Below, piece after piece: positions 13-52,692 of a DNA stretch of 64,000 nt. This stretch comes from Escherichia coli. Lineage in GTDB: Bacteria; Pseudomonadota; Gammaproteobacteria; Enterobacterales; Enterobacteriaceae. Within the stretch, counting starts at the first letter, position 1. The number at the start of each line of letters is the position of its first letter. Below the pieces are notes generated by a model. That model searched no databases. It saw nothing but the letters and a program-made list of their open reading frames with translations, and was not told the DNA's origin. The position numbers were made by a program, and so were the translations under genes. The stretch lies in the NCBI RefSeq assembly GCF_030013595.1, contig NZ_CP122768.1; one strand, 5' to 3'.

Positions 13-1470
13 ATGAAAACACCCTCACAGCCGCGCGCGATATACTATATCGTGGCGATCCAAATCTGGGAGTACTTCAGTTTTTACGGCATGCGTGCCT
101 TACTCATTCTCTATCTCACCCATCAGCTTGGTTTTGATGATAACCATGCCATCAGCCTGTTCAGCGCATATGCTTCTCTGGTTTACGTTACCCCTATTCT
201 CGGCGGCTGGCTTGCCGACCGCCTGCTCGGCAACCGCACTGCAGTGATTGCCGGCGCGCTGTTAATGACCCTTGGCCATGTGGTGCTGGGCATTGATACA
301 AATTCAACCTTTAGCCTGTATCTGGCGCTGGCAATCATTATTTGTGGCTACGGTTTATTCAAATCAAACATCAGCTGTTTGCTTGGCGAGCTCTACGACG
401 AGAACGATCATCGACGTGATGGCGGTTTTTCGCTGCTGTATGCTGCAGGCAATATCGGTTCTATCGCCGCCCCCATCGCCTGCGGCCTGGCTGCTCAGTG
501 GTATGGATGGCATGTTGGCTTTGCCCTTGCGGGTGGCGGCATGTTTATCGGTTTGTTGATTTTCTTAAGCGGTCATCGTCATTTCCAGTCCACGCGTAGT
601 ATGGATAAGAAAGCGCTCACTAGCGTCAAATTTGCCTTACCAGTATGGAGCTGGTTAGTGGTGATGCTCTGTTTAGCCCCAGTATTTTTTACCCTGCTGC
701 TGGAGAACGACTGGTCCGGATATTTGCTGGCGATCGTTTGCCTCATTGCAGCACAAATCATTGCCCGCATGATGATCAAATTCCCCGAACACCGCCGTGC
801 TCTTTGGCAAATTGTATTGTTGATGTTTGTCGGGACGTTGTTCTGGGTACTGGCACAACAGGGCGGCAGTACCATCAGCTTGTTTATCGATCGCTTTGTG
901 AATCGTCAGGCATTCAATATTGAAGTACCTACAGCACTATTCCAGTCGGTGAATGCCATTGCGGTGATGCTCGCTGGGGTTGTTCTGGCCTGGCTGGCGT
1001 CGCCAGAAAGCCGCGGCAATTCAGCATTGCGCGTCTGGCTGAAGTTTGCCTTTGGCTTACTGCTGATGGCTTGTGGCTTTATGTTGCTGGCATTTGATGC
1101 CCGACATGCAGCGGCTGGCGGTCAAGCGTCAATGGGCGTGATGGTATCCGGGCTGGCGCTAATGGGCTTTGCTGAACTCTTTATTGACCCGGTGGCGATT
1201 GCGCAAATCACGCGTCTGAAAATGTCTGGCGTATTAACCGGTATTTATATGCTGGCAACAGGCGCGGTCGCCAACTGGCTGGCAGGCGTCGTGGCACAGC
1301 AGACGACAGAGTCGCAAATTAGCGGTATGGCAATTGCCGCTTACCAGCGATTCTTTTCTCAGATGGGAGAGTGGACGTTGGCTTGTGTCGCGATCATCGT
1401 GGTATTGGCCTTTGCTACCCGTTTTCTGTTTAGCACGCCGACGAATATGATACAGGAGAGCAACGATTAA
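13..1470 (+). CDS. dtpC: Dipeptide/tripeptide:proton symporter, POT family
   Basis: ORF track 13..1470, 485 aa; polytopic membrane protein matching recalled DtpC/YjdL; AAGGAG RBS at 2..6; lysU immediately downstream as in E. coli. Confidence 0.92.
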
Positions 1471-1706: not shown

Positions 1707-3224
1707 ATGTCTGAACGAGAAACACGGGGAGCCAATGAGGCTATTGATTTTAACGATGAACTGAGAAATCGCCGCGAAAAACTGGCGGCACTACGTCAGC
1801 AAGGTGTGGCGTTTCCCAATGATTTTCGCCGCGACCATACCTCTGACCAGTTGCACGAAGAGTTTGATGCGAAGGATAACCAGGAACTGGAATCCTTAAA
1901 CATTGAAGTCTCGGTTGCTGGCCGAATGATGACCCGTCGTATCATGGGGAAAGCCTCCTTTGTAACGTTGCAGGATGTCGGTGGCCGTATTCAACTGTAC
2001 GTTGCAAGAGATAGCCTGCCAGAAGGTGTTTATAACGATCAGTTTAAAAAATGGGATCTGGGTGACATTATCGGTGCCCGCGGTACGCTGTTTAAGACGC
2101 AAACGGGTGAGCTTTCCATTCACTGTACTGAGCTGCGCCTGCTGACTAAAGCACTACGTCCTTTACCAGATAAATTCCATGGTCTGCAGGATCAGGAAGT
2201 CCGTTATCGTCAACGTTATCTGGACCTCATCGCTAACGATAAATCCCGTCAAACGTTTGTTGTCCGTTCAAAAATTCTGGCCGCTATCCGTCAGTTCATG
2301 GTCGCGCGCGGCTTTATGGAAGTAGAAACCCCGATGATGCAGGTAATTCCAGGTGGGGCATCTGCTCGCCCGTTTATTACCCATCATAACGCTCTGGATT
2401 TAGATATGTACCTGCGTATCGCGCCAGAGCTGTATCTGAAACGTCTGGTTGTAGGCGGTTTTGAACGGGTATTCGAAATCAACCGTAACTTCCGTAATGA
2501 AGGTATTTCTGTTCGCCATAATCCTGAGTTCACAATGATGGAACTCTACATGGCGTATGCGGATTACCACGATTTGATTGAACTGACAGAGTCACTGTTC
2601 CGCACCCTGGCACAAGAGGTTCTGGGTACCACTAAAGTCACTTATGGCGAGCATGTGTTTGATTTCGGCAAACCGTTTGAAAAACTCACCATGCGCGAAG
2701 CAATCAAAAAATATCGTCCAGAAACCGATATGGCCGACCTGGATAATTTTGATGCCGCTAAAGCATTAGCTGAATCTATTGGTATTACGGTAGAGAAAAG
2801 CTGGGGGCTGGGACGTATTGTCACGGAGATCTTTGATGAAGTGGCAGAAGCACATCTGATTCAGCCAACCTTTATTACGGAATATCCCGCAGAAGTGTCA
2901 CCGCTGGCGCGCCGTAATGATGTTAACCCGGAAATCACCGACCGATTTGAATTCTTCATCGGTGGTCGTGAAATCGGTAATGGTTTTAGCGAATTAAACG
3001 ACGCAGAAGATCAGGCTGAACGTTTCCAGGAACAGGTTAACGCTAAAGCTGCAGGTGACGACGAAGCCATGTTCTATGACGAAGATTACGTGACTGCGCT
3101 GGAATATGGTTTGCCACCAACCGCTGGTCTGGGTATTGGTATCGACCGAATGATTATGCTGTTTACAAACAGTCATACTATTCGCGACGTTATTCTCTTC
3201 CCGGCGATGCGCCCACAGAAATAA
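1707..3224 (+). CDS. lysU: Lysyl-tRNA synthetase, inducible isozyme
   Basis: ORF track 1680..3224 begins at an upstream TTG; the ATG at 1707 gives 505 aa starting [15 protein letters not shown], a class II aaRS. Called lysU rather than lysS from synteny with dtpC and ghoST. Confidence 0.93.
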
Positions 3225-3235
3225 TTTTCACTTTA

Positions 3236-3269
3236 ATGAACGAAGCAGTCAGGCGACTGCTTCGTTCAT
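3236..3269. terminator. 15-bp perfect inverted repeat hairpin between convergent lysU and ghoT
   Basis: atgaacgaagcagtc / loop aggc / gactgcttcgttcat read directly; no strong T-run, so function as a terminator is inferred from position. Confidence 0.4.
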
Positions 3270-3342
3270 CATTCCGCAAATCCAGTTTTGAGGAGAGACG
3301 CTTCGTTTCACGATAACCAGCGGGTCCACTCAACTACAGCTC

Positions 3343-3516
3343 CTAAAAGAGAGAAAAAAGTAATGCCACAGGCAGACTCATTGGCCAGGTTATTCCTACC
3401 AGGAATGCACTAAGTAAACGAATATGTGTTTTCTCATGTGAGATAAACCAGATAATGACAAAGGATATGTTCACACCAATCACATAAAAAATTAATATTT
3501 TAGAGAATAGTGCCAT
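3343..3516 (-). CDS. ghoT: Type V toxin GhoT, small membrane-lytic peptide (57 aa)
   Basis: Not in ORF track (under 60 aa). Hand translation of the minus strand from ATG at 3516 to TAG at 3343..3345 gives MALFSKILIFYVIGVNISFVIIWFISHEKTHIRLLSAFLVGITWPMSLPVALLFSLF; hydrophobic, directly downstream of ghoS. Confidence 0.88.
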   Translation of the reverse strand: MALFSKILIFYVIGVNISFVIIWFISHEKTHIRLLSAFLVGITWPMSLPVALLFSLF

Positions 3517-3543
3517 TTTTTATGTTCTTCTTATCCTTCCTGG

Positions 3544-3840
3544 CTACTTGTAAAACTGACGGAAATAGTCATCAACGGTCATAATGTTGAGGTCAAAGTC
3601 AATATCCGGTAAGTCTAAGCATTTAAGCCTGATTAAATCTTCGATTTCACTTGCGGCTAACGATGTCGTTATTGCGAAGGAGTTTTCATTCAATTGTCGT
3701 GGTATCCCATATTCATCAGCCACGATAGAGGAGAAATTCATATCATACATCAATGATCTTAACCTTAAGAACACTGAGGAATAAGATGATGGATAATCAA
3801 AAGAAACAACATAAGTATTGAACTTGTTTTTACCTTCCAT
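3544..3840 (-). CDS. ghoS: Type V antitoxin GhoS, endoribonuclease specific for ghoT mRNA
   Basis: ORF track 98 aa, ATG start at 3840 preceded by GGAG; sequence matches recalled GhoS/YjdK; ghoT lies 27 bp downstream on the same strand. Confidence 0.9.
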   Translation of the reverse strand: MEGKNKFNTYVVSFDYPSSYSSVFLRLRSLMYDMNFSSIVADEYGIPRQLNENSFAITTSLAASEIEDLIRLKCLDLPDIDFDLNIMTVDDYFRQFYK

Positions 3841-4066
3841 AATATGACTCCTATCAATATTGAACGCTCTGGGGACGCAAAACTTATTAACCCCGATTGA
3901 TGATTCTCATATAGGAGATATTCTTTTTTTTGCTCAGTAAAGGGGATGACTTGGGACAAAAAAACGCGCTCTCTGCCCATTCTTTGTGCATCCCCCTACC
4001 CTTCAGATGCTCACCTGCATCACACCGCGGAGAGCATGAAAAATATTGTGACTCTGTACTCTCCCA

Positions 4067-4339
4067 TCAACTGCGAATATCATCATACTCCCGCGTTTTA
4101 TCAAATTCGTGTTTCGCAAATGGGCATAGTGGGATAATTTTTCGTTTTTCCCGACGCATTTTTTCCACGACTTTCGCAACCAGCTGTTTACCAATCCCCT
4201 GCCCTTTCAGGCTTTCATCGACATCGGTATGTTCGATAATCGCTAAATTCTCTCCGGTCGGCACAAAGACAATTTCAGCGATTTGCTTGCCCTGTTCGTC
4301 ATTAATGTAAAATTTATTGTGGCCTTCGCGTATTTCCAT
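4067..4339 (-). CDS. yjdJ: Small GNAT-family acetyltransferase-like protein
   Basis: ORF track 90 aa, ATG at 4339; motif QGIGKQLV typical of the GNAT acetyl-CoA site; synteny with yjdI. Confidence 0.85.
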
Positions 4340-4350
4340 TTTACCCTCGC

Positions 4351-4581
4351 TTATTTATGACGGTATTTCAGCGCGCCGCTCGGGCACGTATCAATCACTT
4401 TAACCACAGTGGCAACGTCGACTTCATCCGGCATGATCCACGGCTTTCGTTTGAGATTAAATAACTTGCCGTTGCCACGTACGCAATTGCCAGAATGCTG
4501 ACATATCGCAGTATTGAAATAGACATCGATCTTTTCGCCGGTATAACAGCGATAACCCCCGTCCAGTAGCGCCCGATCCAT
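4351..4581 (-). CDS. yjdI: Small cysteine-rich protein of unknown function
   Basis: ORF track 76 aa, ATG at 4581; four Cys (CYTG, CQHSGNC, CPSG) suggest a metal or Fe-S site; 11 bp upstream of yjdJ, likely co-transcribed. Confidence 0.85.
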
Positions 4582-4761: not shown

Positions 4762-6393
4762 ATGAGACATTCATTGCCCTACCGTATGTTACGCAAACGT
4801 CCGATGAAATTGAGTACCACTGTGATCTTAATGGTCAGCGCGGTACTGTTCTCGGTGCTATTGGTGGTGCATCTGATTTACTTCTCGCAAATCAGTGATA
4901 TGACGCGAGACGGGCTAGCCAACAAGGCGCTGGCAGTGGCGCGTACCCTCGCCGACTCGCCGGAAATCCGTCAGGGCTTGCAGAAAAAACCTCAGGAGAG
5001 CGGCATCCAGGCCATCGCGGAAGCCGTGCGCAAACGCAACGATCTGCTATTTATTGTCGTTACCGATATGCAAAGTCTTCGCTACTCGCATCCTGAAGCC
5101 CAGCGTATTGGTCAGCCATTTAAAGGTGATGACATCCTTAAAGCGCTGAATGGCGAAGAAAATGTCGCTATCAATCGCGGTTTTCTGGCGCAGGCTTTAC
5201 GCGTATTTACCCCCATCTACGATGAAAATCATAAACAAATTGGCGTGGTGGCGATCGGCCTTGAGTTAAGTCGCGTGACCCAACAGATCAATGACAGTCG
5301 CTGGAGCATTATCTGGTCGGTATTATTTGGCATGCTGGTCGGACTGATCGGCACCTGCATTCTGGTTAACGTACTGAAAAAAATCCTTTTTGGCCTGGAA
5401 CCCTACGAAATCTCCACGCTGTTTGAGCAGCGCCAGGCCATGTTGCAGTCTATCAAAGAAGGCGTCGTTGCCGTGGACGATCGCGGTGAAGTCACGCTGA
5501 TCAACGATGCCGCACAAGAATTGCTGAATTACCGTAAGTCGCAGGACGATGAGAAACTGTCGACGCTAAGCCACTCGTGGTCACAGGTGGTAGATGTCTC
5601 GGAAGTGTTACGCGACGGTACCCCGCGGCGCGACGAAGAGATTACGATTAAAGACCGGCTATTACTGATCAACACCGTTCCGGTGCGCAGTAATGGCGTT
5701 ATCATCGGTGCCATTTCAACCTTCAGGGACAAAACTGAAGTACGTAAACTGATGCAGCGACTCGATGGTCTGGTCAACTATGCTGACGCACTTCGTGAAC
5801 GATCCCACGAATTTATGAATAAATTGCACGTGATTCTCGGATTATTGCATCTGAAGAGTTATAAGCAGTTGGAAGATTACATTCTCAAAACAGCCAATAA
5901 CTATCAGGAAGAGATTGGCTCTCTGCTGGGTAAGATCAAATCTCCGGTTATCGCTGGTTTTTTAATCAGCAAGATTAACCGCGCGACCGATTTAGGCCAT
6001 ACGCTGATTTTAAACAGTGAAAGCCAGCTGCCAGACAGCGGCAGTGAAGACCAGGTCGCGACGCTGATTACCACGTTGGGAAATCTGATAGAAAACGCGC
6101 TGGAAGCATTAGGGCCGGAACCCGGAGGCGAAATTAGCGTAACATTGCACTACCGTCACGGCTGGCTGCACTGTGAAGTTAATGATGATGGACCGGGGAT
6201 CGCACCCGATAAAATCGATCACATTTTTGACAAAGGTGTCTCGACAAAAGGAAGCGAGCGAGGCGTCGGTTTAGCACTTGTCAAACAACAGGTAGAAAAT
6301 CTCGGCGGCAGCATCGCCGTGGAATCGGAACCCGGGATTTTCACACAATTTTTTGTCCAGATACCCTGGGACGGGGAGAGGTCGAACAGATGA
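4762..6393 (+). CDS. dcuS: C4-dicarboxylate sensor histidine kinase
   Basis: ORF track 543 aa, ATG start; two transmembrane segments, periplasmic sensing domain, PAS and HATPase motifs (DDGPGI); overlaps dcuR start. Confidence 0.93.
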   Translation: MRHSLPYRMLRKRPMKLSTTVILMVSAVLFSVLLVVHLIYFSQISDMTRDGLANKALAVARTLADSPEIRQGLQKKPQESGIQAIAEAVRKRNDLLFIVVTDMQSLRYSHPEAQRIGQPFKGDDILKALNGEENVAINRGFLAQALRVFTPIYDENHKQIGVVAIGLELSRVTQQINDSRWSIIWSVLFGMLVGLIGTCILVNVLKKILFGLEPYEISTLFEQRQAMLQSIKEGVVAVDDRGEVTLINDAAQELLNYRKSQDDEKLSTLSHSWSQVVDVSEVLRDGTPRRDEEITIKDRLLLINTVPVRSNGVIIGAISTFRDKTEVRKLMQRLDGLVNYADALRERSHEFMNKLHVILGLLHLKSYKQLEDYILKTANNYQEEIGSLLGKIKSPVIAGFLISKINRATDLGHTLILNSESQLPDSGSEDQVATLITTLGNLIENALEALGPEPGGEISVTLHYRHGWLHCEVNDDGPGIAPDKIDHIFDKGVSTKGSERGVGLALVKQQVENLGGSIAVESEPGIFTQFFVQIPWDGERSNR

Positions 6394-11634: not shown

Positions 11635-12092
11635 TCAGGCTTTCACATCACTCACTGCACCGACCGGAATATCAGCATGAACAGGCTCGGGCGGTACTTT
11701 GCGATATTTATCCAGCAGATGGATCTGGATCCTGCGCAGCGTGCACCATTGAGGCGATAGAAACGGAAGTAGAGAATCAGCGTTACCATGAAAAACAGAG
11801 TCGGTAGAGCAATCATAATAAACTGCATACCTAATAGGGCTTGCGTAGACTGTTCAACATTCGGTACATAGCCAATCATCCCTAACACAACCGCAATGAA
11901 AAAAGCCGCAAAGGCTGAACCGCCCTTCACCACCATAGTCTGCACGGAGTAAGCGATGCTTTCACAGCGTACGTGCAGTTTATATTCACCGTAATCAACG
12001 GTATCTGCCACCATGATGACCTGTAATACCCAGAAAAGCGCCGTTCCCACATTCAGCAAGATACCCGCAATCACAATGAGGACGACGTTGTG
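11635..12092 (-). pseudogene. melB: melB 3' fragment (melibiose:Na+ symporter), separated from its 5' part by IS1 and carrying a 1-bp frameshift
   Basis: Minus-strand translation continues the melB N-terminal fragment across the IS1 target duplication (HNV then [13 protein letters not shown]...). At about 11741..11747 the frame shifts; the alternate frame gives [35 protein letters not shown] and stops at 11635..11637, matching the recalled MelB C-terminus. Confidence 0.8.
12084..12092. repeat. IS1 target site duplication, copy 1 (gacgttgtg)
   Basis: Identical 9-mer directly flanks both IS1 ends (12084..12092 and 12861..12869). Confidence 0.9.
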
Positions 12093-12107
12093 GGTAATGA
12101 CTCCAAC

Positions 12108-12611
12108 TTACTGATAGTGTTTTATGTTCAGATAATGCCCGATGACCTTGTCATGCAGCTCCACCGATTTTGAGAACGACAGTGACTTCCGTCCCAGCCT
12201 TGCCAGATGTTGTCTCAGATTCAGGTTATGCCGCTCAATGCGCTGAGTATAACGCTTGCTGATAACGTGCAGCTTTCCCTTCAGGCGTGATTCATACAGC
12301 GGCCAGCCATCCGTCATCCATACCACGACCTCAAAGGCCGACAGCAGGCTCAGAAGACGCTCCAGTGTGGCCAGAGTGCGTTCACCGAAGACGTGCGCCA
12401 CAACCGTCCTCCGCATCCTGTCATACGCGTAAAACAGCCAGCGCTGACGTGATTTAGCACCGACGTAGCCCCACTGTTCGTCCATTTCAGCGCAGACAAT
12501 CACATCACTGCCCGGTTGTATGCGCGAGGTTACCGACTGCGGCCTGAGTTTTTTAAGTGGCGGAAAATCGTGTTGAGGCCAACGCCAATAATGCGTGCAC
12601 TGGCGCGACAT
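12108..12611 (-). CDS. insB: IS1 transposase ORF InsB (expressed as InsAB' fusion by -1 frameshift)
   Basis: ORF track 167 aa ending ...[18 protein letters not shown], the recalled InsB C-terminus; the frameshift motif ttaaaaaactc lies on the minus strand at about 12546..12557. Confidence 0.9.
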
Positions 12612-12805
12612 CCGACGCCATTCATGGCCATATCAATGATTTTCTGGTGCGTACCGGGCTGAGAGGCGGCGTAAGTGAACTGTAGTTGCCATGTTTTACG
12701 GCAGTGAGAGCAGAGATAGCGCTGATGTCCGGCGGTGCTTTTGCCGTTACGCACCACCCCGTCAGTAGCTGAACAGGAGGGACAGCTGATAGAAACAGAA
12801 GCCAC
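12530..12805 (-). CDS. insA: IS1 InsA, transposition repressor / N-terminal part of transposase
   Basis: ORF track 91 aa [43 protein letters not shown]..., zinc-finger-like CxxC pairs; matches recalled InsA. Confidence 0.92.
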
Positions 12806-12860
12806 TGGAGCACCTCAAAAACACCATCATACACTAAATCAGTAAGTTGGCAGCATCACC

Positions 12861-12869
12861 GACGTTGTG
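12861..12869. repeat. IS1 target site duplication, copy 2 (gacgttgtg)
   Basis: See copy 1; these 9 bp encode H-N-V of melB on the minus strand. Confidence 0.9.
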
Positions 12870-13832
12870 ATAGCTCATTAATGCCATTAACAGGAGAACA
12901 CCACAGCTTAACACCGGAAGAATAGATGCTCCGGCCCATAAAATGCGTCGGGATAATGATTTAACTAAGCGTGGGAAGAATACTAACGTCACCAGATTAG
13001 CAGCTCCCGCATACGACAGATAATAGGGGAACAAATCCGCATCACCGATAACATATGAGAAATAATAGATAGCAAAGCCGGTAATAATATTGCTGGCTAC
13101 ATTATAAGCAAGAGCCATACCCAAGAGGCATGAAAGCTGATCGTTTTTATAAATTAGCGCAACGATGGCTTTAAGTGTCAGATGGCTTCCTTCAGCAGAC
13201 GGTTGATTGTCTGACGAAAAGACTTCATGCACATTGCGCAGAGTGATGATGGTTGAAACAATAAAAAAGGCGATCAGTACCAGAGTGAACATCTGAAAGC
13301 CAAATCCCCGATCGCCACCGCCGACATAATTAACAAATGGTAGCGTCACACCTGCCGTAACAAAGCCTGCCAGACTGGCAAAAAAACGCGGATAAGGAAC
13401 CAGTTGTTCGCGCTCACGTTTATCGAGCGTTATGGTTGGAACCAGCGACCAGAAGGGAATATCCATAATGGTGTAAGTCATGCCCCAGAGGATGTAGGTC
13501 ACGCAAACAAAGACAATCTGAGTAGTACCTTCAAACAGATGCGCACTAAAGAGGAGAAATAAGATTACAGAGTTTGCCAACGTACCGATCAGGATCCAGG
13601 GTTTGAACTTACCCCATCGCGATCGCGTAGCATTTACAATCCATCCCATAATCGGATCGTTAATAGCATCCCAGATCCTCGCCACCAGAAACAAAGTACC
13701 GACCAAACCCACAGACAGCCCGACGACATCGGTGTAGTAATACATGAGGTACATATACACAATGCCGATCGCAAAATCCTTCCCGAACGCTCCAAATCCA
13801 TAACTGAGTTTTGTAGTCATTGAAATGCTCAT
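12861..13832 (-). pseudogene. melB: melB 5' fragment (melibiose:Na+ symporter), truncated by IS1
   Basis: ORF track 12834..13856 (340 aa) runs from the melB start region ([16 protein letters not shown]..., ATG at 13832) to ...LMSYHNV, then reads 8 codons into the IS1 IRL before stopping. Confidence 0.88.
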
Positions 13833-13934
13833 AGGGTATCGGGTCGTTGTTACCAACGCCCGCCTTCTGTTATTGGTATCGTCAGAGGTGTGCGCCGGAA
13901 TAAATCCCCCGGCGCAGTAGCGTTTAGTCGCGTT

Positions 13935-16481: not shown

Positions 16482-16679
16482 AGACGATATCAGTATCAGC
16501 CAAAAAAATAGTTTAGCCGTCGATAATAAGCAGTGAAAATAATTTAAAATAATCACATAACATATTGTTTATAAAAACAAATATTTCAAAAATGTTTGTT
16601 TTTCACGCGCTTTACAGCCCGAAAAGGCCGGAAGATACTTGCCCGCACCGAAGATTCCTTCATAACCGGGTAAGCAATG

Positions 16680-18947
16680 ATGAAAGTATTAATTGTTGAA
16701 AGCGAGTTTCTCCATCAAGACACCTGGGTCGGTAACGCCGTTGAGCGTCTGGCAGATGCTTTAAGCCAGCAAAATGTTACCGTGATTAAATCCACCTCCT
16801 TTGATGATGGTTTTGCCATTCTCTCTTCAAACGAAGCCATTGACTGCCTGATGTTCAGCTATCAAATGGAACATCCGGACGAACATCAAAACGTCAGACA
16901 ATTGATCGGTAAGCTTCATGAGCGCCAACAAAACGTGCCGGTCTTCCTGTTGGGCGATCGGGAAAAAGCCCTCGCCGCAATGGATCGCGACCTGCTGGAG
17001 CTTGTCGATGAATTCGCCTGGATTCTGGAAGATACCGCCGACTTTATCGCCGGACGCGCCGTTGCCGCGATGACCCGCTACCGCCAGCAACTGTTGCCGC
17101 CACTGTTCAGCGCGCTGATGAAATATAGCGACATCCATGAATATTCCTGGGCAGCACCAGGCCACCAGGGTGGCGTTGGTTTTACCAAAACACCCGCCGG
17201 ACGTTTCTACCATGACTACTATGGTGAAAACCTGTTCCGCACCGACATGGGCATCGAACGAACTTCCCTCGGTTCTTTGCTTGACCATACTGGCGCATTT
17301 GGCGAAAGCGAAAAATATGCTGCACGCGTATTTGGTGCCGATCGCTCCTGGTCGGTAGTCGTCGGTACTTCCGGCTCTAACCGCACCATCATGCAGGCTT
17401 GCATGACCGATAACGATGTCGTGGTCGTTGACCGTAACTGCCATAAATCCATCGAACAAGGCTTGATGCTGACAGGCGCGAAACCGGTCTACATGGTGCC
17501 AAGCCGCAACCGCTACGGCATTATCGGGCCAATCTATCCGCAGGAAATGCAACCTGAAACCTTGCAGAAGAAAATCAGTGAAAGCCCGCTGAATAAAGAC
17601 AAAGCCGGGCAAAAACCGTCTTACTGCGTGGTGACCAACTGCACCTATGACGGCGTGTGTTATAACGCTAAAGAAGCGCAGGATCTGCTGGAAAAAACCT
17701 CCGATCGTCTGCACTTTGACGAAGCCTGGTACGGCTATGCACGTTTCAACCCGATCTATGCCGATCACTATGCCATGCGCGGCGAACCTGGCGATCACAA
17801 CGGTCCTACCGTTTTCGCCACCCACTCCACCCACAAACTGCTGAATGCGCTGTCACAGGCCTCTTATATTCATGTACGTGAAGGTCGTGGGGCGATTAAC
17901 TTCTCCCGCTTCAACCAGGCCTACATGATGCATGCCACCACCTCCCCGCTGTATGCCATCTGCGCATCCAACGACGTGGCGGTGTCGATGATGGACGGCA
18001 ACAGCGGCCTGTCACTGACCCAGGAAGTGATCGACGAAGCGGTTGATTTCCGTCAGGCGATGGCGCGGCTGTATAAAGAGTTCACCGCTGACGGTAGCTG
18101 GTTCTTCAAACCGTGGAACAAAGAAGTCGTCACCGACCCACAAACCGGCAAAACCTATGACTTTGCTGACGCACCAACCAAACTGCTGACCACCGTTCAG
18201 GACTGCTGGGTCATGCATCCGGGCGAAAGCTGGCACGGCTTCAAAGATATTCCGGATAACTGGAGTATGCTCGACCCGATTAAAGTCAGCATCCTTGCTC
18301 CGGGAATGGGTGAAGATGGTGAACTGGAAGAAACCGGTGTTCCGGCGGCGCTGGTCACTGCCTGGCTTGGTCGCCACGGCATTGTGCCTACCCGCACCAC
18401 TGACTTCCAAATTATGTTCCTGTTCTCTATGGGCGTAACCCGTGGGAAATGGGGGACTCTGGTTAACACCCTTTGCTCCTTCAAACGCCACTATGACGCC
18501 AACACACCGCTGGCGCAGGTGATGCCGGAACTTGTTGAACAATATCCTGACACTTACGCGAACATGGGGATTCACGATCTGGGTGACACCATGTTTGCCT
18601 GGCTGAAAGAAAACAACCCTGGCGCACGGTTGAACGAAGCCTATTCCGGCCTGCCGGTGGCGGAAATCACCCCGCGTGAAGCGTACAACGCGATTGTCGA
18701 CAACAATGTCGAACTGGTATCCATTGAAAATCTGCCAGGACGCATCGCGGCAAACTCAGTTATCCCGTATCCGCCAGGAATCCCGATGCTGCTGTCTGGT
18801 GAAAACTTCGGCGATAAAAACAGTCCGCAAGTAAGTTATTTACGCTCGCTGCAATCCTGGGACCATCATTTCCCTGGATTTGAACACGAAACAGAAGGGA
18901 CAGAAATTATTGACGGTATTTACCACGTTATGTGTGTGAAAGCGTAA
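16680..18947 (+). CDS. adiA: Biodegradative (acid-inducible) arginine decarboxylase
   Basis: ORF track 16677..18947 has tandem ATG codons; the second ATG (MKVLIVESEF) gives 755 aa; PLP-dependent fold (STHKLL lysine motif). Confidence 0.92.
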   Translation: MKVLIVESEFLHQDTWVGNAVERLADALSQQNVTVIKSTSFDDGFAILSSNEAIDCLMFSYQMEHPDEHQNVRQLIGKLHERQQNVPVFLLGDREKALAAMDRDLLELVDEFAWILEDTADFIAGRAVAAMTRYRQQLLPPLFSALMKYSDIHEYSWAAPGHQGGVGFTKTPAGRFYHDYYGENLFRTDMGIERTSLGSLLDHTGAFGESEKYAARVFGADRSWSVVVGTSGSNRTIMQACMTDNDVVVVDRNCHKSIEQGLMLTGAKPVYMVPSRNRYGIIGPIYPQEMQPETLQKKISESPLNKDKAGQKPSYCVVTNCTYDGVCYNAKEAQDLLEKTSDRLHFDEAWYGYARFNPIYADHYAMRGEPGDHNGPTVFATHSTHKLLNALSQASYIHVREGRGAINFSRFNQAYMMHATTSPLYAICASNDVAVSMMDGNSGLSLTQEVIDEAVDFRQAMARLYKEFTADGSWFFKPWNKEVVTDPQTGKTYDFADAPTKLLTTVQDCWVMHPGESWHGFKDIPDNWSMLDPIKVSILAPGMGEDGELEETGVPAALVTAWLGRHGIVPTRTTDFQIMFLFSMGVTRGKWGTLVNTLCSFKRHYDANTPLAQVMPELVEQYPDTYANMGIHDLGDTMFAWLKENNPGARLNEAYSGLPVAEITPREAYNAIVDNNVELVSIENLPGRIAANSVIPYPPGIPMLLSGENFGDKNSPQVSYLRSLQSWDHHFPGFEHETEGTEIIDGIYHVMCVKA

Positions 18948-23939: not shown

Positions 23940-25031
23940 ATGCGTTTTCTGCGCCGACCAATATCGCTGCGCCAACGGCTGATATTGACCATTGGGGCCA
24001 TTTTGTTGGTGTTTGAGCTGATCAGCGTCTTCTGGCTATGGCATGAAAGTACCGAGCAGATTCAGCTGTTTGAGCAGGCGCTACGCGACAATCGCAACAA
24101 CGATCGCCACATCATGCGTGAGATCCGCGAGGCGGTCGCCAGCCTGATCGTCCCCGGCGTCTTTATGGTCAGCCTGACGCTATTTATCTGCTATCAGGCG
24201 GTACGCCGCATCACCCGCCCGCTGGCGGAGCTGCAAAAAGAGCTGGAAGCGCGCACCGCCGACAACTTAACGCCCATTGCCATTCACAGCGCCACCCTCG
24301 AAATCGAAGCGGTGGTTTCGGCGTTAAACGATCTGGTCAGTCGCCTGACCAACACGCTGGATAACGAAAGGTTGTTTACCGCTGACGTCGCGCACGAACT
24401 GCGAACGCCACTGGCGGGGGGGCGTTTGCATCTGGAACTGCTGGCGAAAACGCATCACATTGATGTAGCACCGTTAGTGGCACGGCTTGATCAGATGATG
24501 GAGAGCGTCTCCCAGCTGCTGCAACTGGCGCGTGCCGGACAGTCATTTTCTTCCGGTAATTATCAACATGTAAAACTGCTGGAAGATGTCATTCTCCCCT
24601 CGTATGACGAACTCAGTACCATGCTCGACCAGCGACAGCAAACCCTGCTATTGCCAGAGAGCGCCGCCGACATCACCGTTCAGGGTGATGCAACCCTGCT
24701 GCGGATGTTATTGCGAAACCTGGTAGAAAACGCCCATCGTTACAGCCCGCAAGGCAGCAACATTATGATTAAGCTGCAAGAAGATGGCGGAGCGGTCATG
24801 GCTGTTGAAGATGAAGGACCGGGTATTGATGAGAGTAAATGCGGGGAGTTGAGTAAAGCATTTGTACGTATGGACAGCCGTTATGGCGGGATTGGTCTGG
24901 GGTTAAGTATTGTCAGCCGCATTACACAGTTGCATCACGGGCAGTTTTTCCTGCAAAACCAGCAAGAGACTTCCGGCACGCGGGCCTGGGTACGGCTGAA
25001 GAAAGATCAGTACGTGGCAAACCAGATATAA
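23940..25031 (+). CDS. basS: Sensor histidine kinase BasS (PmrB)
   Basis: ORF track 23931..25031 begins at TTG; the ATG at 23940 (MRFLRRPISL) gives 363 aa; two TM segments, H-box (ADVAHELRTP), HATPase motifs. Confidence 0.9.
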   Translation: MRFLRRPISLRQRLILTIGAILLVFELISVFWLWHESTEQIQLFEQALRDNRNNDRHIMREIREAVASLIVPGVFMVSLTLFICYQAVRRITRPLAELQKELEARTADNLTPIAIHSATLEIEAVVSALNDLVSRLTNTLDNERLFTADVAHELRTPLAGGRLHLELLAKTHHIDVAPLVARLDQMMESVSQLLQLARAGQSFSSGNYQHVKLLEDVILPSYDELSTMLDQRQQTLLLPESAADITVQGDATLLRMLLRNLVENAHRYSPQGSNIMIKLQEDGGAVMAVEDEGPGIDESKCGELSKAFVRMDSRYGGIGLGLSIVSRITQLHHGQFFLQNQQETSGTRAWVRLKKDQYVANQI

Positions 25032-25096
25032 AGAAAGCTGCTGACCACCAGCACGCTGAACACGGTAGTTAAACTTTCATAAACACGGTTTTTCAT
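25007..25096 (-). CDS. pmrR: Small membrane protein PmrR (29 aa), PmrA-regulated
   Basis: Not in ORF track. Hand translation of the minus strand from ATG at 25096 to TGA at 25007 gives MKNRVYESLTTVFSVLVVSSFLYIWFATY; its 3' end overlaps the basS 3' end by 25 bp in antisense. Confidence 0.8.
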   Translation of the reverse strand: MKNRVYESLTTVFSVLVVSSFLYIWFATY

Positions 25097-25140
25097 TGCA
25101 CTCTCCTCCGTTAACCTGGAGGAGAGTATGCGCGTCAGAG

Positions 25141-25157
25141 ATTAAGTGAACCTTAAG
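25141..25157 (-). promoter_or_regulatory. Putative PmrA (BasR) box upstream of pmrR
   Basis: Minus strand reads cttaag gttca cttaat, same half-site architecture as the eptA box, about 45-60 bp upstream of the pmrR ATG. Confidence 0.6.
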
Positions 25158-25166
25158 ACTTCAATT

Positions 25167-30814: not shown

Positions 30815-30832
30815 TTGTATTGTGATCGGTAA

Positions 30833-30908
30833 GCCGGATAAGGCGCTCGCGCCGCATCCGGCAACGATGCCGACAGCCTGATGCGACGCTGACCGCGTCT
30901 TATCAGGC
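30833..30908. repeat. REP elements (two units) between yjdM and yjdN
   Basis: gccggataaggcgctcgcgccgcatccggc and gcctgatgcgacgctgaccgcgtcttatcaggc read directly. Confidence 0.7.
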
Positions 30909-30973
30909 TTCCCTCTCATCTGTATAAATTTCGAACTACACTTAACTGGCTTCTCTTAACTGAGGTCACCATC

Positions 30974-33439: not shown

Positions 33440-34219
33440 ATGCAAACCATCACCATCGCCCCACCCAAGCGCAGCTGGTTCTCGCTTCTGAGCTGGGCCA
33501 TTGTTCTCGCCGTGCTGGTCGTCTCGTGGCAGGGCGCGGAAATGGCCCCGCTCACGCTGATTAAAGACGGCGGCAACATGGCAACCTTCGCCGCCGACTT
33601 CTTCCCGCCCGATTTCAGCCAGTGGCAGGATTACCTCACCGAAATGGCCGTCACGCTGCAAATCGCCGTCTGGGGCACCGCGCTGGCGGTGGTTCTCTCC
33701 ATCCCCTTCGGTCTGATGAGCGCCGAAAACCTAGTGCCGTGGTGGGTTTACCAGCCCGTACGCCGCCTGATGGACGCCTGCCGCGCCATTAACGAAATGG
33801 TCTTCGCCATGCTGTTCGTGGTCGCCGTCGGCCTTGGCCCGTTCGCTGGCGTGCTGGCGCTGTTTATCCACACCACCGGCGTGCTCTCCAAACTGCTTTC
33901 CGAAGCGGTAGAAGCAATTGAACCCGGCCCGGTGGAAGGTATTCGCGCCACCGGTGCCAACAAGCTCGAAGAGATCCTCTACGGCGTGCTGCCGCAGGTG
34001 ATGCCGCTGCTGATCTCCTACTCCCTCTATCGCTTCGAATCCAACGTCCGTTCGGCCACCGTTGTTGGCATGGTCGGCGCTGGCGGGATCGGCGTCACCC
34101 TGTGGGAAGCGATTCGCGGTTTCCAGTTCCAGCAAACCTGCGCCCTGATGGTGCTGATTATCGTCACGGTCAGCCTGCTGGATTTCCTCTCTCAACGGTT
34201 GCGTAAGCACTTTATCTGA
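33440..34219 (+). CDS. phnE: Phosphonate ABC transporter permease, apparently intact
   Basis: ORF track 259 aa uninterrupted; ABC permease EAA-like region; two tandem near-identical octamers gctggcgt/gctggcgc at 33845..33860 with the reading frame open. Confidence 0.9.
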
Positions 34220-50544: not shown

Positions 50545-52692
50545 ATGAAAAAAGTCGTCACGGTTTGCCCCTATTGCGCATCAGGTTGCAAAATCAACCT
50601 GGTCGTCGATAACGGCAAAATCGTCCGGGCGGAGGCAGCGCAGGGGAAAACCAACCAGGGTACCCTGTGTCTGAAGGGTTATTATGGCTGGGACTTCATT
50701 AACGATACCCAGATCCTGACCCCGCGCCTGAAAACCCCCATGATCCGTCGCCAGCGTGGCGGCAAACTCGAACCTGTTTCCTGGGATGAGGCACTGAATT
50801 ACGTTGCCGAGCGCCTGAGCGCCATCAAAGAGAAGTACGGTCCGGATGCCATCCAGACGACCGGCTCCTCGCGTGGTACGGGTAACGAAACCAACTATGT
50901 AATGCAAAAATTTGCGCGCGCCGTTATTGGTACCAATAACGTTGACTGCTGCGCTCGTGTCTGACACGGCCCATCGGTTGCAGGTCTGCACCAATCGGTC
51001 GGTAATGGCGCAATGAGCAATGCTATTAACGAAATTGATAATACCGATTTAGTGTTCGTTTTCGGGTACAACCCGGCGGATTCCCACCCAATCGTGGCGA
51101 ATCACGTAATTAACGCTAAACGTAACGGGGCGAAAATTATCGTCTGCGATCCGCGCAAAATTGAAACCGCGCGCATTGCGGACATGCACATTGCACTGAA
51201 AAACGGCTCAAACATCGCGCTGTTGAATGCGATGGGTCATGTCATTATTGAAGAAAACCTGTACGACAAAGCGTTCGTCGCTTCCCGTACAGAAGGCTTT
51301 GAAGAGTATCGTAAAATCGTTGAAGGCTACACGCCGGAGTCGGTTGAAGATATCACCGGCGTCAGCGCCAGTGAGATTCGTCAGGCGGCACGGATGTATG
51401 CCCAGGCGAAAAGCGCCGCCATCCTGTGGGGCATGGGTGTAACCCAGTTCTACCAGGGTGTGGAAACCGTGCGTTCTCTGACCAGCCTCGCGATGCTGAC
51501 TGGTAACCTCGGTAAGCCGCATGCGGGTGTAAACCCGGTTCGTGGTCAGAACAACGTGCAGGGTGCCTGCGATATGGGCGCGCTGCCGGATACGTATCCG
51601 GGCTATCAGTACGTGAAAGATCCGGCTAACCGCGAGAAATTCGCCAAAGCCTGGGGCGTGGAAAGCCTGCCAGCGCATACCGGCTATCGCATCAGCGAGC
51701 TGCCGCACCGCGCAGCGCATGGCGAAGTGCGTGCCGCGTACATTATGGGCGAAGATCCGCTGCAAACTGACGCGGAGCTGTCGGCAGTACGTAAAGCCTT
51801 CGAAGATCTGGAACTGGTCATCGTTCAGGACATCTTTATGACCAAAACCGCGTCGGCGGCGGATGTTATTTTACCGTCAACGTCGTGGGGCGAGCATGAA
51901 GGCGTGTTTACTGCGGCTGACCGTGGCTTCCAGCGTTTCTTCAAAGCGGTTGAACCGAAGTGGGATCTGAAAACGGACTGGCAAATCATCAGTGAAATCG
52001 CCACCCGTATGGGTTATCCGATGCACTACAACAACACCCAGGAGATCTGGGATGAGTTGCGTCATCTGTGCCCGGATTTCTACGGTGCGACTTACGAGAA
52101 AATGGGCGAACTGGGCTTCATTCAGTGGCCTTGCCGCGATACTTCAGATGCCGATCAGGGGACTTCTTATCTGTTTAAAGAGAAGTTTGATACCCCGAAC
52201 GGTCTGGCGCAGTTCTTCACCTGCGACTGGGTAGCGCCAATCGACAAACTCACCGACGAGTATCCGATGGTACTGTCAACGGTGCGTGAAGTTGGTCACT
52301 ACTCTTGCCGTTCGATGACCGGTAACTGTGCGGCACTGGCAGCGCTGGCTGATGAACCTGGCTACGCACAAATCAATACCGAAGACGCCAAACGTCTGGG
52401 TATTGAAGATGAGGCATTGGTTTGGGTGCACTCGCGTAAAGGCAAAATTATCACCCGTGCGCAGGTCAGCGATCGTCCGAACAAAGGGGCGATTTATATG
52501 ACCTACCAGTGGTGGATTGGTGCCTGTAACGAGCTGGTTACCGAAAACTTAAGCCCGATTACGAAAACGCCGGAATACAAATACTGCGCCGTGCGCGTCG
52601 AGCCGATCGCCGATCAGCGCGCCGCCGAGCAGTACGTGATTGACGAGTACAACAAGTTGAAAACTCGCCTGCGCGAAGCGGCACTGGCGTAA
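50545..52692 (+). CDS. fdhF: Formate dehydrogenase H, selenocysteine-containing molybdoenzyme (in-frame UGA at 50962..50964 read as Sec)
   Basis: ORF track splits this into 50545..50964 and 51013..52692 in the same frame; the only interruption is TGA at 50962..50964 (...NNVDCCARV-U-HGPSVAGLHQSVGNG...); N-terminal Fe-S Cys motif CPYCASGC; total 715 codons. Confidence 0.93.
50962..51005 (+). other. Selenocysteine UGA codon plus downstream SECIS stem-loop
   Basis: tga cacggcccatcggttgcaggtctgcaccaatcggtcggtaatggc: a hairpin-forming segment immediately 3' of the in-frame UGA, matching the recalled fdhF SECIS. Confidence 0.85.

What the first reader, a model, noticed from the sequence alone, without database searches (positions are those of the whole stretch)
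3343..3840. ghoST type V toxin-antitoxin pair; the toxin gene is invisible to the 60-codon ORF track
ghoS (98 aa) is followed 27 bp downstream by a 57-codon ORF encoding a very hydrophobic peptide identical in character to GhoT. In type V systems the antitoxin is an RNase that cleaves toxin mRNA instead of binding the toxin protein. It lies convergent with lysU and shares the 3236..3269 hairpin region.
Basis: partly seen in the sequence, partly recalled or inferred. Interest (0 to 1): 0.4.

Follow-up and report, generated by a model that had tools for sequence, protein, structure and literature searches.

The report
Known E. coli ghoST toxin-antitoxin pair

Summary
Observation and interpretation both hold. 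On the minus strand, a 98-codon ORF (3544..3840) is followed after a 27-bp spacer by a 57-codon, very hydrophobic ORF (3343..3516). The pair is convergent with lysU. A perfect 15+4+15 palindrome lies exactly at 3236..3269 between them.

The 98-aa protein is 100% identical to E. coli K-12 YjdK/GhoS (PDB 2LLZ) and matches Pfam GhoS (E 6e-41). The 57-aa protein is 100% identical to K-12 GhoT (b4559) and matches Pfam Toxin_GhoT_OrtT (E 9e-26).

The DNA is found in 5341 of 5426 complete E. coli genomes, where RefSeq annotates it as the type V toxin GhoT and endoribonuclease antitoxin GhoS. Across six strains, all 4 variable sites in ghoT are synonymous, as are 7 of 8 in ghoS. ghoS carries three 5'-GCU sites and ghoT none, matching the published selective cleavage by MqsR.

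The mechanism (GhoS cleaves ghoT mRNA; GhoT damages the inner membrane) comes from the literature on these same proteins. It was not tested here. The hairpin has no U-tract on either strand, so its role as a shared terminator is only inferred.

Novelty: already known. Interest: low.

The parts
3544..3840 (-). ghoS (yjdK), the 98-aa antitoxin and endoribonuclease. First gene of the pair. Contains three 5'-GCU sites, at nt 121, 213 and 221 of the CDS.
   Evidence: ORF. Pfam PF11080 GhoS, E 6.1e-41. 100% identity to PDB 2LLZ YjdK. RefSeq annotation. GCU count.
3848..3852 (-). Shine-Dalgarno AGGAG of ghoS, 7 nt upstream of the ATG.
   Evidence: Read directly from the sequence TAGGAGTCATATTATG.
3517..3543 (-). 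27-bp ghoS-ghoT spacer, purine-rich. It carries AGGAAGGA at 3534..3541 and the SD-like AAGAAG at 3527..3532, which ends 10 nt before the ghoT ATG. It holds no terminator-like site and no GCU.
   Evidence: One variable site (3539) among six strains.
3343..3516 (-). ghoT (yjdO, b4559), the 57-aa hydrophobic membrane toxin with two predicted transmembrane stretches. Phe38 is present. The CDS holds no 5'-GCU site.
   Evidence: ORF. Pfam PF10753 Toxin_GhoT_OrtT, E 8.9e-26. Identical to K-12 GhoT. Hydropathy and GCU count. Four of 4 variable sites are synonymous.
3236..3269 (.). Perfect 15-bp inverted repeat with a 4-nt loop, in the 118-bp gap between the ghoT stop and the lysU stop. In ghoT-sense RNA it extends to 17 pairs (3234..3271). 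No U-tract follows it on either strand. It is a probable 3'-end hairpin for one or both convergent transcripts (inferred).
   Evidence: The terminator scan found 0 sites. It is not a dispersed repeat: median 1 place per genome and 1 match in the window.
3841..4066 (-). 226-bp yjdJ-ghoS intergenic region, which should hold the ghoST promoter (not mapped here). It is the most variable segment of the locus.
   Evidence: 22 of 228 alignment columns vary among six strains. The only minus-strand promoter-like match lies at 4104..4076, inside yjdJ, and the hit count is at chance level. The fold is not unusual, z = -0.68.
1707..3224 (+). lysU (lysine-tRNA ligase, heat-inducible paralogue), the convergent neighbour of ghoT.
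   Evidence: 504 of 505 residues identical to K-12 LysU b4129. PGAP labels it 'lysS' in the near-identical strain, but its position between dtpC and ghoT is that of lysU.

Best explanation
The locus is the chromosomal ghoST operon of Escherichia coli, the founding type V toxin-antitoxin system.

**Transcription and translation.** ghoS and ghoT lie on the same strand, 27 bp apart, with no terminator-like site between them. That fits one bicistronic mRNA, antitoxin first. Co-transcription is a literature claim and was not tested here. ghoS has a strong SD at good spacing. ghoT has only a weak, distant one.

**Mechanism, from the literature on proteins identical to these.** GhoS is a stable, sequence-specific endoribonuclease. 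It neither binds GhoT nor represses the operon. Instead it cleaves the ghoT part of the message, so little toxin is made. When the type II toxin MqsR is active it cuts at 5'-GCU sites. These occur three times in ghoS and not at all in ghoT. The antitoxin message is therefore lost, the ghoT message is enriched, and GhoT is made. GhoT is a two-helix inner-membrane peptide. It damages the membrane, collapses the proton-motive force and ATP, and causes growth arrest, persistence, or 'ghost' cells on overproduction.

**What was shown here.** Gene order, spacing, protein identity, hydropathy, GCU asymmetry, conservation and purifying selection.

**What is inferred or taken from papers.** Co-transcription, RNase activity, toxicity, MqsR control, and any terminator role of the 3236..3269 hairpin.
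For: - ORFs and 27-bp spacer.
- Pfam GhoS E 6.1e-41 and Toxin_GhoT_OrtT E 8.9e-26.
- GhoS 98 of 98 residues identical to PDB 2LLZ.
- GhoT identical to K-12 b4559.
- Versus K-12, only 5 substitutions in the two CDSs, all synonymous.
- DNA present in 5341 of 5426 complete E. coli genomes and annotated as type V GhoS/GhoT, in the same dtpC-lysU-ghoT-ghoS-yjdJ-yjdI-dcuS context as K-12.
- Six-strain alignment: ghoT 4 of 4 and ghoS 7 of 8 variable sites synonymous. The one replacement is N85S. The GhoT protein accession WP_001173343.1 is the same in strains down to 97.3% DNA identity.
- No terminator-like site in the spacer.
- Three GCU in ghoS and none in ghoT, matching the statement that ghoT is one of 14 E. 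coli mRNAs lacking GCU and escapes MqsR (PMC4905990).
- Mechanism statements: PMC4344625, PMC4010927, PMC5086665, PMC3874152, PMC3827094.
Against: - No result here contradicts the identification.
- The RNase activity, toxicity and co-transcription were not and cannot be tested with these tools. The primary papers (Wang et al. 2012, 2013) are not in the held library, so the mechanism is cited through secondary sources.
- A delta-ghoS Keio mutant is viable and was used as a host strain (PMC4010927 strain table). Native ghoT expression is therefore not lethal without the antitoxin, which is atypical for a toxin-antitoxin pair.
- The stress-response role of MqsRA, the proposed upstream trigger, has been questioned (noted in PMC11205521). 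Whether this genome carries mqsRA is unknown from the window.
- NCBIfam HMMs gave no hit.
- No promoter could be placed above chance level.
Confidence: 0.97

Rival explanations
1. The 57-codon ORF is a chance open frame in AT-rich DNA, and only ghoS is a real gene.
For: The region is AT-rich: ghoT is 34.5% GC and ghoS 35.7%, with a local dip to 0.35. One search lists many spurious ORFs of 50-98 aa nearby. The ghoT SD is weak and distant.
Against: The ORF matches Pfam Toxin_GhoT_OrtT at E 8.9e-26 over the full model and is identical to the annotated K-12 GhoT. All 4 variable sites among six strains are synonymous. Papers report that the protein is toxic and that F38R abolishes toxicity (PMC4344625).
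Confidence: 0.01
2. The pair is real, but GhoS neutralises GhoT in vivo by some means other than cleaving ghoT mRNA. Possibilities include protein-protein or membrane-level antagonism (type II- or type IV-like), or a broader RNase role with ghoT as an incidental substrate.
For: All mechanistic evidence reachable here is cited through reviews and follow-up papers, most of them from the discovering group. The delta-ghoS mutant is viable. Two point mutations turn GhoS into a toxin that acts without GhoT (PMC4010927), which shows that the fold can act on other cellular targets.
Against: The literature states that GhoS is not labile, does not control transcription of the pair, and acts by cleaving the ghoT transcript (PMC4344625; PMC3874152). 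GhoS does not rescue the 63%-identical toxin OrtT. That fits RNA-sequence specificity better than generic protein antagonism.
Confidence: 0.05
3. The locus works as a type I-like module. An antisense small RNA, started from within or downstream of ghoT or produced by lysU read-through past the U-tract-less hairpin, would control the small hydrophobic toxin.
For: GhoT resembles type I toxins in size and hydrophobicity (PMC3827094). Plus-strand promoter-like hexamers lie at 3470-3499 and 3556-3585. The lysU-ghoT hairpin lacks a U-tract, so read-through is conceivable. The stem variant at 3268 keeps pairing (G.U) only in the lysU-sense RNA.
Against: The promoter-like hits are at chance level: 4 found against 3.4 +/- 1.8 expected. 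Rfam has no sRNA hit in 3200-4100. No antisense RNA is annotated in K-12. A dedicated protein antitoxin is already present and conserved.
Confidence: 0.03

Closest known systems
GhoT/GhoS (ghoST, formerly yjdO/yjdK) type V toxin-antitoxin system of E. coli K-12 (Wang et al. 2012, Nat Chem Biol 8:855; GhoS NMR structure PDB 2LLZ)
   Same: Both proteins are 100% identical. The 27-bp spacer is identical. The neighbours are the same: lysU convergent, yjdJ upstream. The GCU asymmetry is the same.
   Different: Five synonymous substitutions lie in the two coding regions. Nine further differences lie in the flanking non-coding DNA and the adjoining lysU 3' end. Nothing functional is apparent.
OrtT (YdcX), the orphan GhoT-like toxin of E. 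coli
   Same: Same Pfam family, PF10753 Toxin_GhoT_OrtT. Same size and two transmembrane segments. It is reported to be 63% identical to GhoT, with a conserved Phe38 (PMC4344625).
   Different: OrtT has no partner antitoxin and is not neutralised by GhoS. The ORF here is GhoT itself and sits next to ghoS.
Type I toxin-antitoxin membrane peptides (Hok, TisB, Ldr, Ibs)
   Same: Small hydrophobic inner-membrane toxins that dissipate the proton-motive force. They are short enough to be missed by ORF-length cut-offs (PMC3827094).
   Different: Their antitoxin is an antisense RNA. Here it is a protein RNase encoded upstream on the same strand. No sRNA was found.

Membership tests
GhoS antitoxin family (Pfam PF11080; founding member E. 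coli YjdK/GhoS) | Sequence membership: match to the family profile above the gathering score, and similarity to the founding member. | tested here: met
   138.8 bits against a cut-off of 21, E 6.1e-41, over model positions 6-93 of 94. 98 of 98 residues identical to PDB 2LLZ_A.
GhoS antitoxin family (Pfam PF11080; founding member E. coli YjdK/GhoS) | Sequence-specific endoribonuclease activity on ghoT mRNA. | not testable with these tools
   Reported for the identical K-12 protein (PMC4344625; PMC3874152).
GhoT/OrtT toxin family (Pfam PF10753) | Sequence membership and identity to GhoT. | tested here: met
   90.4 bits against a cut-off of 22.1, E 8.9e-26, over model positions 1-55 of 55. Identical to K-12 b4559.
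GhoT/OrtT toxin family (Pfam PF10753) | Peptide of about 57 aa with two transmembrane segments and the functionally required Phe38. | tested here: met
   GRAVY +1.50, with two hydrophobic stretches separated by SHEKTHIR. Residue 38 is F. The F38R effect is cited from PMC4344625.
GhoT/OrtT toxin family (Pfam PF10753) | Membrane damage and growth inhibition when produced. | not testable with these tools
   Literature only.
Type V toxin-antitoxin system | Antitoxin and toxin genes adjacent on one strand as a bicistronic unit, antitoxin first. | tested here: met
   ghoS 3840..3544, then ghoT 3516..3343, with a 27-bp spacer. No terminator-like site lies between them. Actual co-transcription was not tested.
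Type V toxin-antitoxin system | A protein antitoxin acts on the toxin mRNA, not on the toxin protein or its target. | not testable with these tools
   Taken from the literature on the identical proteins.
Type V toxin-antitoxin system | Differential MqsR sensitivity: 5'-GCU sites in ghoS and none in ghoT. | tested here: met
   Three GCU in ghoS (nt 121, 213, 221), and none in ghoT or the spacer. This agrees with PMC4905990.
Type I toxin-antitoxin system (considered) | An antisense or overlapping small-RNA antitoxin. | tested here: not met
   No Rfam family hit in the locus. Antisense promoter-like sites are at chance frequency. This is absence of evidence, not proof of absence.
Mobile (plasmid or phage) addiction module (considered) | Carried on plasmids or phages. 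| tested here: not met
   GhoS matches 9 of 72,556 plasmid records. All are Escherichia and predicted non-mobilizable, and 7 of the 9 are longer than 600 kb. There is no match in 50,697 phage records. In complete E. coli genomes, 5373 places are chromosomal and 3 are on plasmids.

The most novel reading that the evidence does not exclude
The 15-bp perfect palindrome at 3236..3269 has no U-tract on either strand and sits between convergent lysU and ghoT. It may not be an efficient terminator. Read-through from heat- or stress-induced lysU would then produce RNA antisense to ghoT, or ghoST read-through would produce RNA antisense to lysU. That would add an undescribed antisense layer to control of the toxin. 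The only hint is that the common stem variant at 3268 preserves pairing (G.U) in the lysU-sense RNA but not in the ghoT-sense RNA.
Probability: 0.05. Interest if true: 0.3.

Novelty: already known. Interest (0 to 1): 0.06.

Why it matters
It matters little beyond correct annotation. ghoST has been the textbook type V toxin-antitoxin system since 2012. It is part of the E. coli core chromosome, present in about 98% of complete genomes, and this copy encodes proteins identical to those of K-12.

The useful lesson is methodological. A 60-codon ORF cut-off hides real genes such as ghoT (57 aa), and in the same window pmrR (29 aa). Hydrophobic mini-ORFs next to small conserved genes therefore deserve a look.

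Tried and rejected
- **NCBIfam** HMMs gave no hit for either protein, although PGAP names both. Pfam, PDB and RefSeq annotation settled the identity instead.
- **Terminator scan** of 3100-4400 found 0 sites. The hairpin therefore cannot be called a canonical intrinsic terminator.
- **Promoter scan** was at chance level (4 found against 3.4 expected), and the only minus-strand hit lies inside yjdJ. No promoter is assigned.
- **Folding the 230-nt upstream region** gave nothing unusual, z = -0.68.
- **Primary papers** PMC3514572, PMC3620836 and DOI 10.1038/nchembio.1062 are not held. As a result I could not cite GhoS cleavage-site specificity, the Cas2-like fold claim, or the RT-PCR co-transcription result at first hand.
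- **One literature search** on 'GhoT' alone was swamped by unrelated words such as Ghotki.
- **Phage search** returned nothing. The plasmid hits are mostly very large, non-mobilizable records, so the idea that the AT-rich pair is a mobile module has no support.
- **Not run, on purpose:** metagenome or GTDB-wide scans, structure prediction and large protein searches. The proteins are identical to an experimentally characterised pair with a solved structure, so the outcome could not change the verdict.

Full report
**What is there.** On the minus strand, the ORF listing gives a 98-aa ORF at 3544..3840 and a 57-aa ORF at 3343..3516. The gap between them is 3517..3543, which is 27 bp: CCAGGAAGGATAAGAAGAACATAAAAA. 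ghoS is preceded by AGGAG 7 nt before its ATG. ghoT has only a purine-rich tract: AGGAAGGA far upstream, and AAGAAG ending 10 nt before its ATG. The 57-aa product is MALFSKILIFYVIGVNISFVIIWFISHEKTHIRLLSAFLVGITWPMSLPVALLFSLF. It has GRAVY +1.50 and two hydrophobic stretches separated by SHEKTHIR.

**Context.** The window is E. coli chromosome: dtpC (13..1470, +), lysU (1707..3224, +), ghoT, ghoS, yjdJ (4067..4339, -), yjdI (4351..4581, -), dcuS and dcuR (+). This is the same order as in K-12 MG1655. The lysU product shares 504 of 505 residues with K-12 LysU. lysU and ghoT are convergent, with 118 bp between their stop codons.

**The hairpin.** It occurs once in the window, against none expected.
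- It dominates the predicted fold of both strands (z = -4.1, z = -6.9).
- In the ghoT-sense RNA it extends to 17 pairs (3234..3271).
- Neither strand has a U-tract after the stem, and the terminator scan found nothing. 'Shared terminator' is therefore an inference.
- It is not a dispersed repeat element, because the query containing it hits a median of one place per genome.
- Among six strains the stem site 3268 varies, A>G on the plus strand. That keeps a G.U pair in the lysU-sense RNA but gives C.A in the ghoT-sense RNA. This is a faint hint that the hairpin matters more for lysU.

**Identity.**
- Pfam: the 57-aa protein matches PF10753 Toxin_GhoT_OrtT (E 8.9e-26, full model). The 98-aa protein matches PF11080 GhoS (E 6.1e-41).
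- The 98-aa protein is identical over all 98 residues to PDB 2LLZ, 'Uncharacterized protein yjdK' of E. coli.
- The 57-aa protein is identical to K-12 GhoT, b4559.
- Against K-12 DNA the two coding regions differ at five positions, all synonymous, and the spacer is identical.
- NCBIfam HMMs gave nothing.

**Distribution and selection.**
- The 842-bp segment 3225..4066 is found in 5341 of 5426 complete E. coli genomes. It is nearly always chromosomal and single-copy, and is annotated 'type V toxin-antitoxin system endoribonuclease antitoxin GhoS' and 'toxin GhoT'.
- In an alignment of the window with K-12, O157:H7, ST131 and two environmental strains, ghoT has 4 variable sites, all synonymous. 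ghoS has 8, of which 7 are synonymous and 1 gives N85S. The yjdJ-ghoS intergenic region is much more variable, at 22 of 228 columns.
- Both ORFs are therefore under purifying selection.
- GhoS is essentially absent from plasmids: 9 of 72,556 records, all E. coli, all non-mobilizable, mostly longer than 600 kb. It is absent from phage records.
- One strain (E41) has lost both genes next to an IS1.
- The pair is AT-rich, about 35% GC. I found no evidence that it is mobile today.

**Mechanism.** This comes from papers on proteins identical to these.
- GhoS is an endoribonuclease that is not labile under stress and does not regulate transcription of the pair. It prevents GhoT synthesis by cleaving ghoT mRNA.
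- GhoT is a two-helix membrane peptide whose production damages the membrane, lowers ATP and produces ghost cells. F38R abolishes its toxicity (PMC4344625; PMC3874152; PMC3827094; PMC5086665).
- MqsR cuts at 5'-GCU, degrades the ghoS message and leaves ghoT, one of 14 E. coli mRNAs without GCU (PMC4905990; PMC4010927).
- I checked the sequence basis of this last point directly. ghoS has three GCT (nt 121, 213, 221), while ghoT and the spacer have none.
- Caveats: the primary papers are not in the held library. A delta-ghoS mutant is viable. [quoted passage not shown] The window does not show whether this genome has mqsRA.

**Verdict.** This is the known ghoST type V toxin-antitoxin locus, unchanged at the protein level from K-12. 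Novelty: already known. Interest: low.

**Elsewhere in the window.** Compared with the nearly identical strain HCP5S3_I2 (99.94% identity), the window carries an IS1 inserted in melB. adiA is intact here but frameshifted in that strain. Rfam finds the fdhF SECIS, STnc630 over pmrR, and naRNA4. pmrR (29 aa, 25007..25096, -) is another real gene below the 60-codon cut-off.

Noticed in passing
window 12093..12860 (melB region 11635..13856): A 768-bp IS1 element interrupts melB (melibiose permease). It is absent from the otherwise 99.94%-identical strain NZ_CM149870.1. It is flanked by the direct repeat CGACGTTGTG (12083-12092 and 12860-12869) and has terminal inverted repeats. ORF 12108..12611 (-) matches Pfam IS1 transposase at E 1.1e-74. 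The 340-aa ORF at 12834..13856 (-) is only the N-terminal MFS_2 part of MelB. This strain is probably melibiose-transport negative.
   Followed up: yes
window 16677..18947 (+): adiA (arginine decarboxylase) is an intact 756-aa ORF in the window. The closest database strain, HCP5S3_I2, has it annotated as a frameshifted pseudogene.
   Followed up: partly
window 25007..25096 (-), Rfam hit 25000..25165 (-): pmrR is a 29-aa membrane peptide (MKNRVYESLTTVFSVLVVSSFLYIWFATY) that overlaps the 3' end of basS/pmrB on the opposite strand. Rfam calls the region STnc630 (181 bits). It is another genuine gene invisible to a 60-codon ORF track.
   Followed up: partly
window 50957..51011 (+): Rfam finds a SECIS_2 element (87 bits) inside fdhF. 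The long ORF listed from 51013 is the part of fdhF after the in-frame UGA selenocysteine codon, so a plain ORF track splits this gene.
   Followed up: no
window 30832..30909 (+): Rfam naRNA4 (nucleoid-associated ncRNA 4, REP-derived) hit at 85.5 bits, in the yjdM-yjdN intergenic region.
   Followed up: no
window 33440..34219 (+): phnE is an intact 259-aa ORF and is annotated as intact in the near-identical strain. From memory, K-12 carries a cryptic, frameshifted phnE, so this strain's phn operon may be functional for phosphonate uptake. The K-12 comparison was not checked here.
   Followed up: no
L005 (E. coli E41, NZ_CP069707.1) 5001..5900: In this strain the segment carrying ghoS and ghoT is missing. 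An IS1A element sits immediately after the first 102 bp of the yjdJ-ghoS intergenic region and is followed by unrelated genes (a formylglycine-generating enzyme family protein and an ABC transporter). The pair can evidently be lost as a unit without obvious harm.
   Followed up: partly
window 1707..3224 (+): PGAP labels this gene 'lysS' in the RefSeq genomes. By position (dtpC-lysU-ghoT) and 504 of 505 identity to K-12 b4129, it is lysU, the inducible paralogue. The ORF listing start at TTG 1680 lies 27 nt upstream of the annotated ATG.
   Followed up: yes
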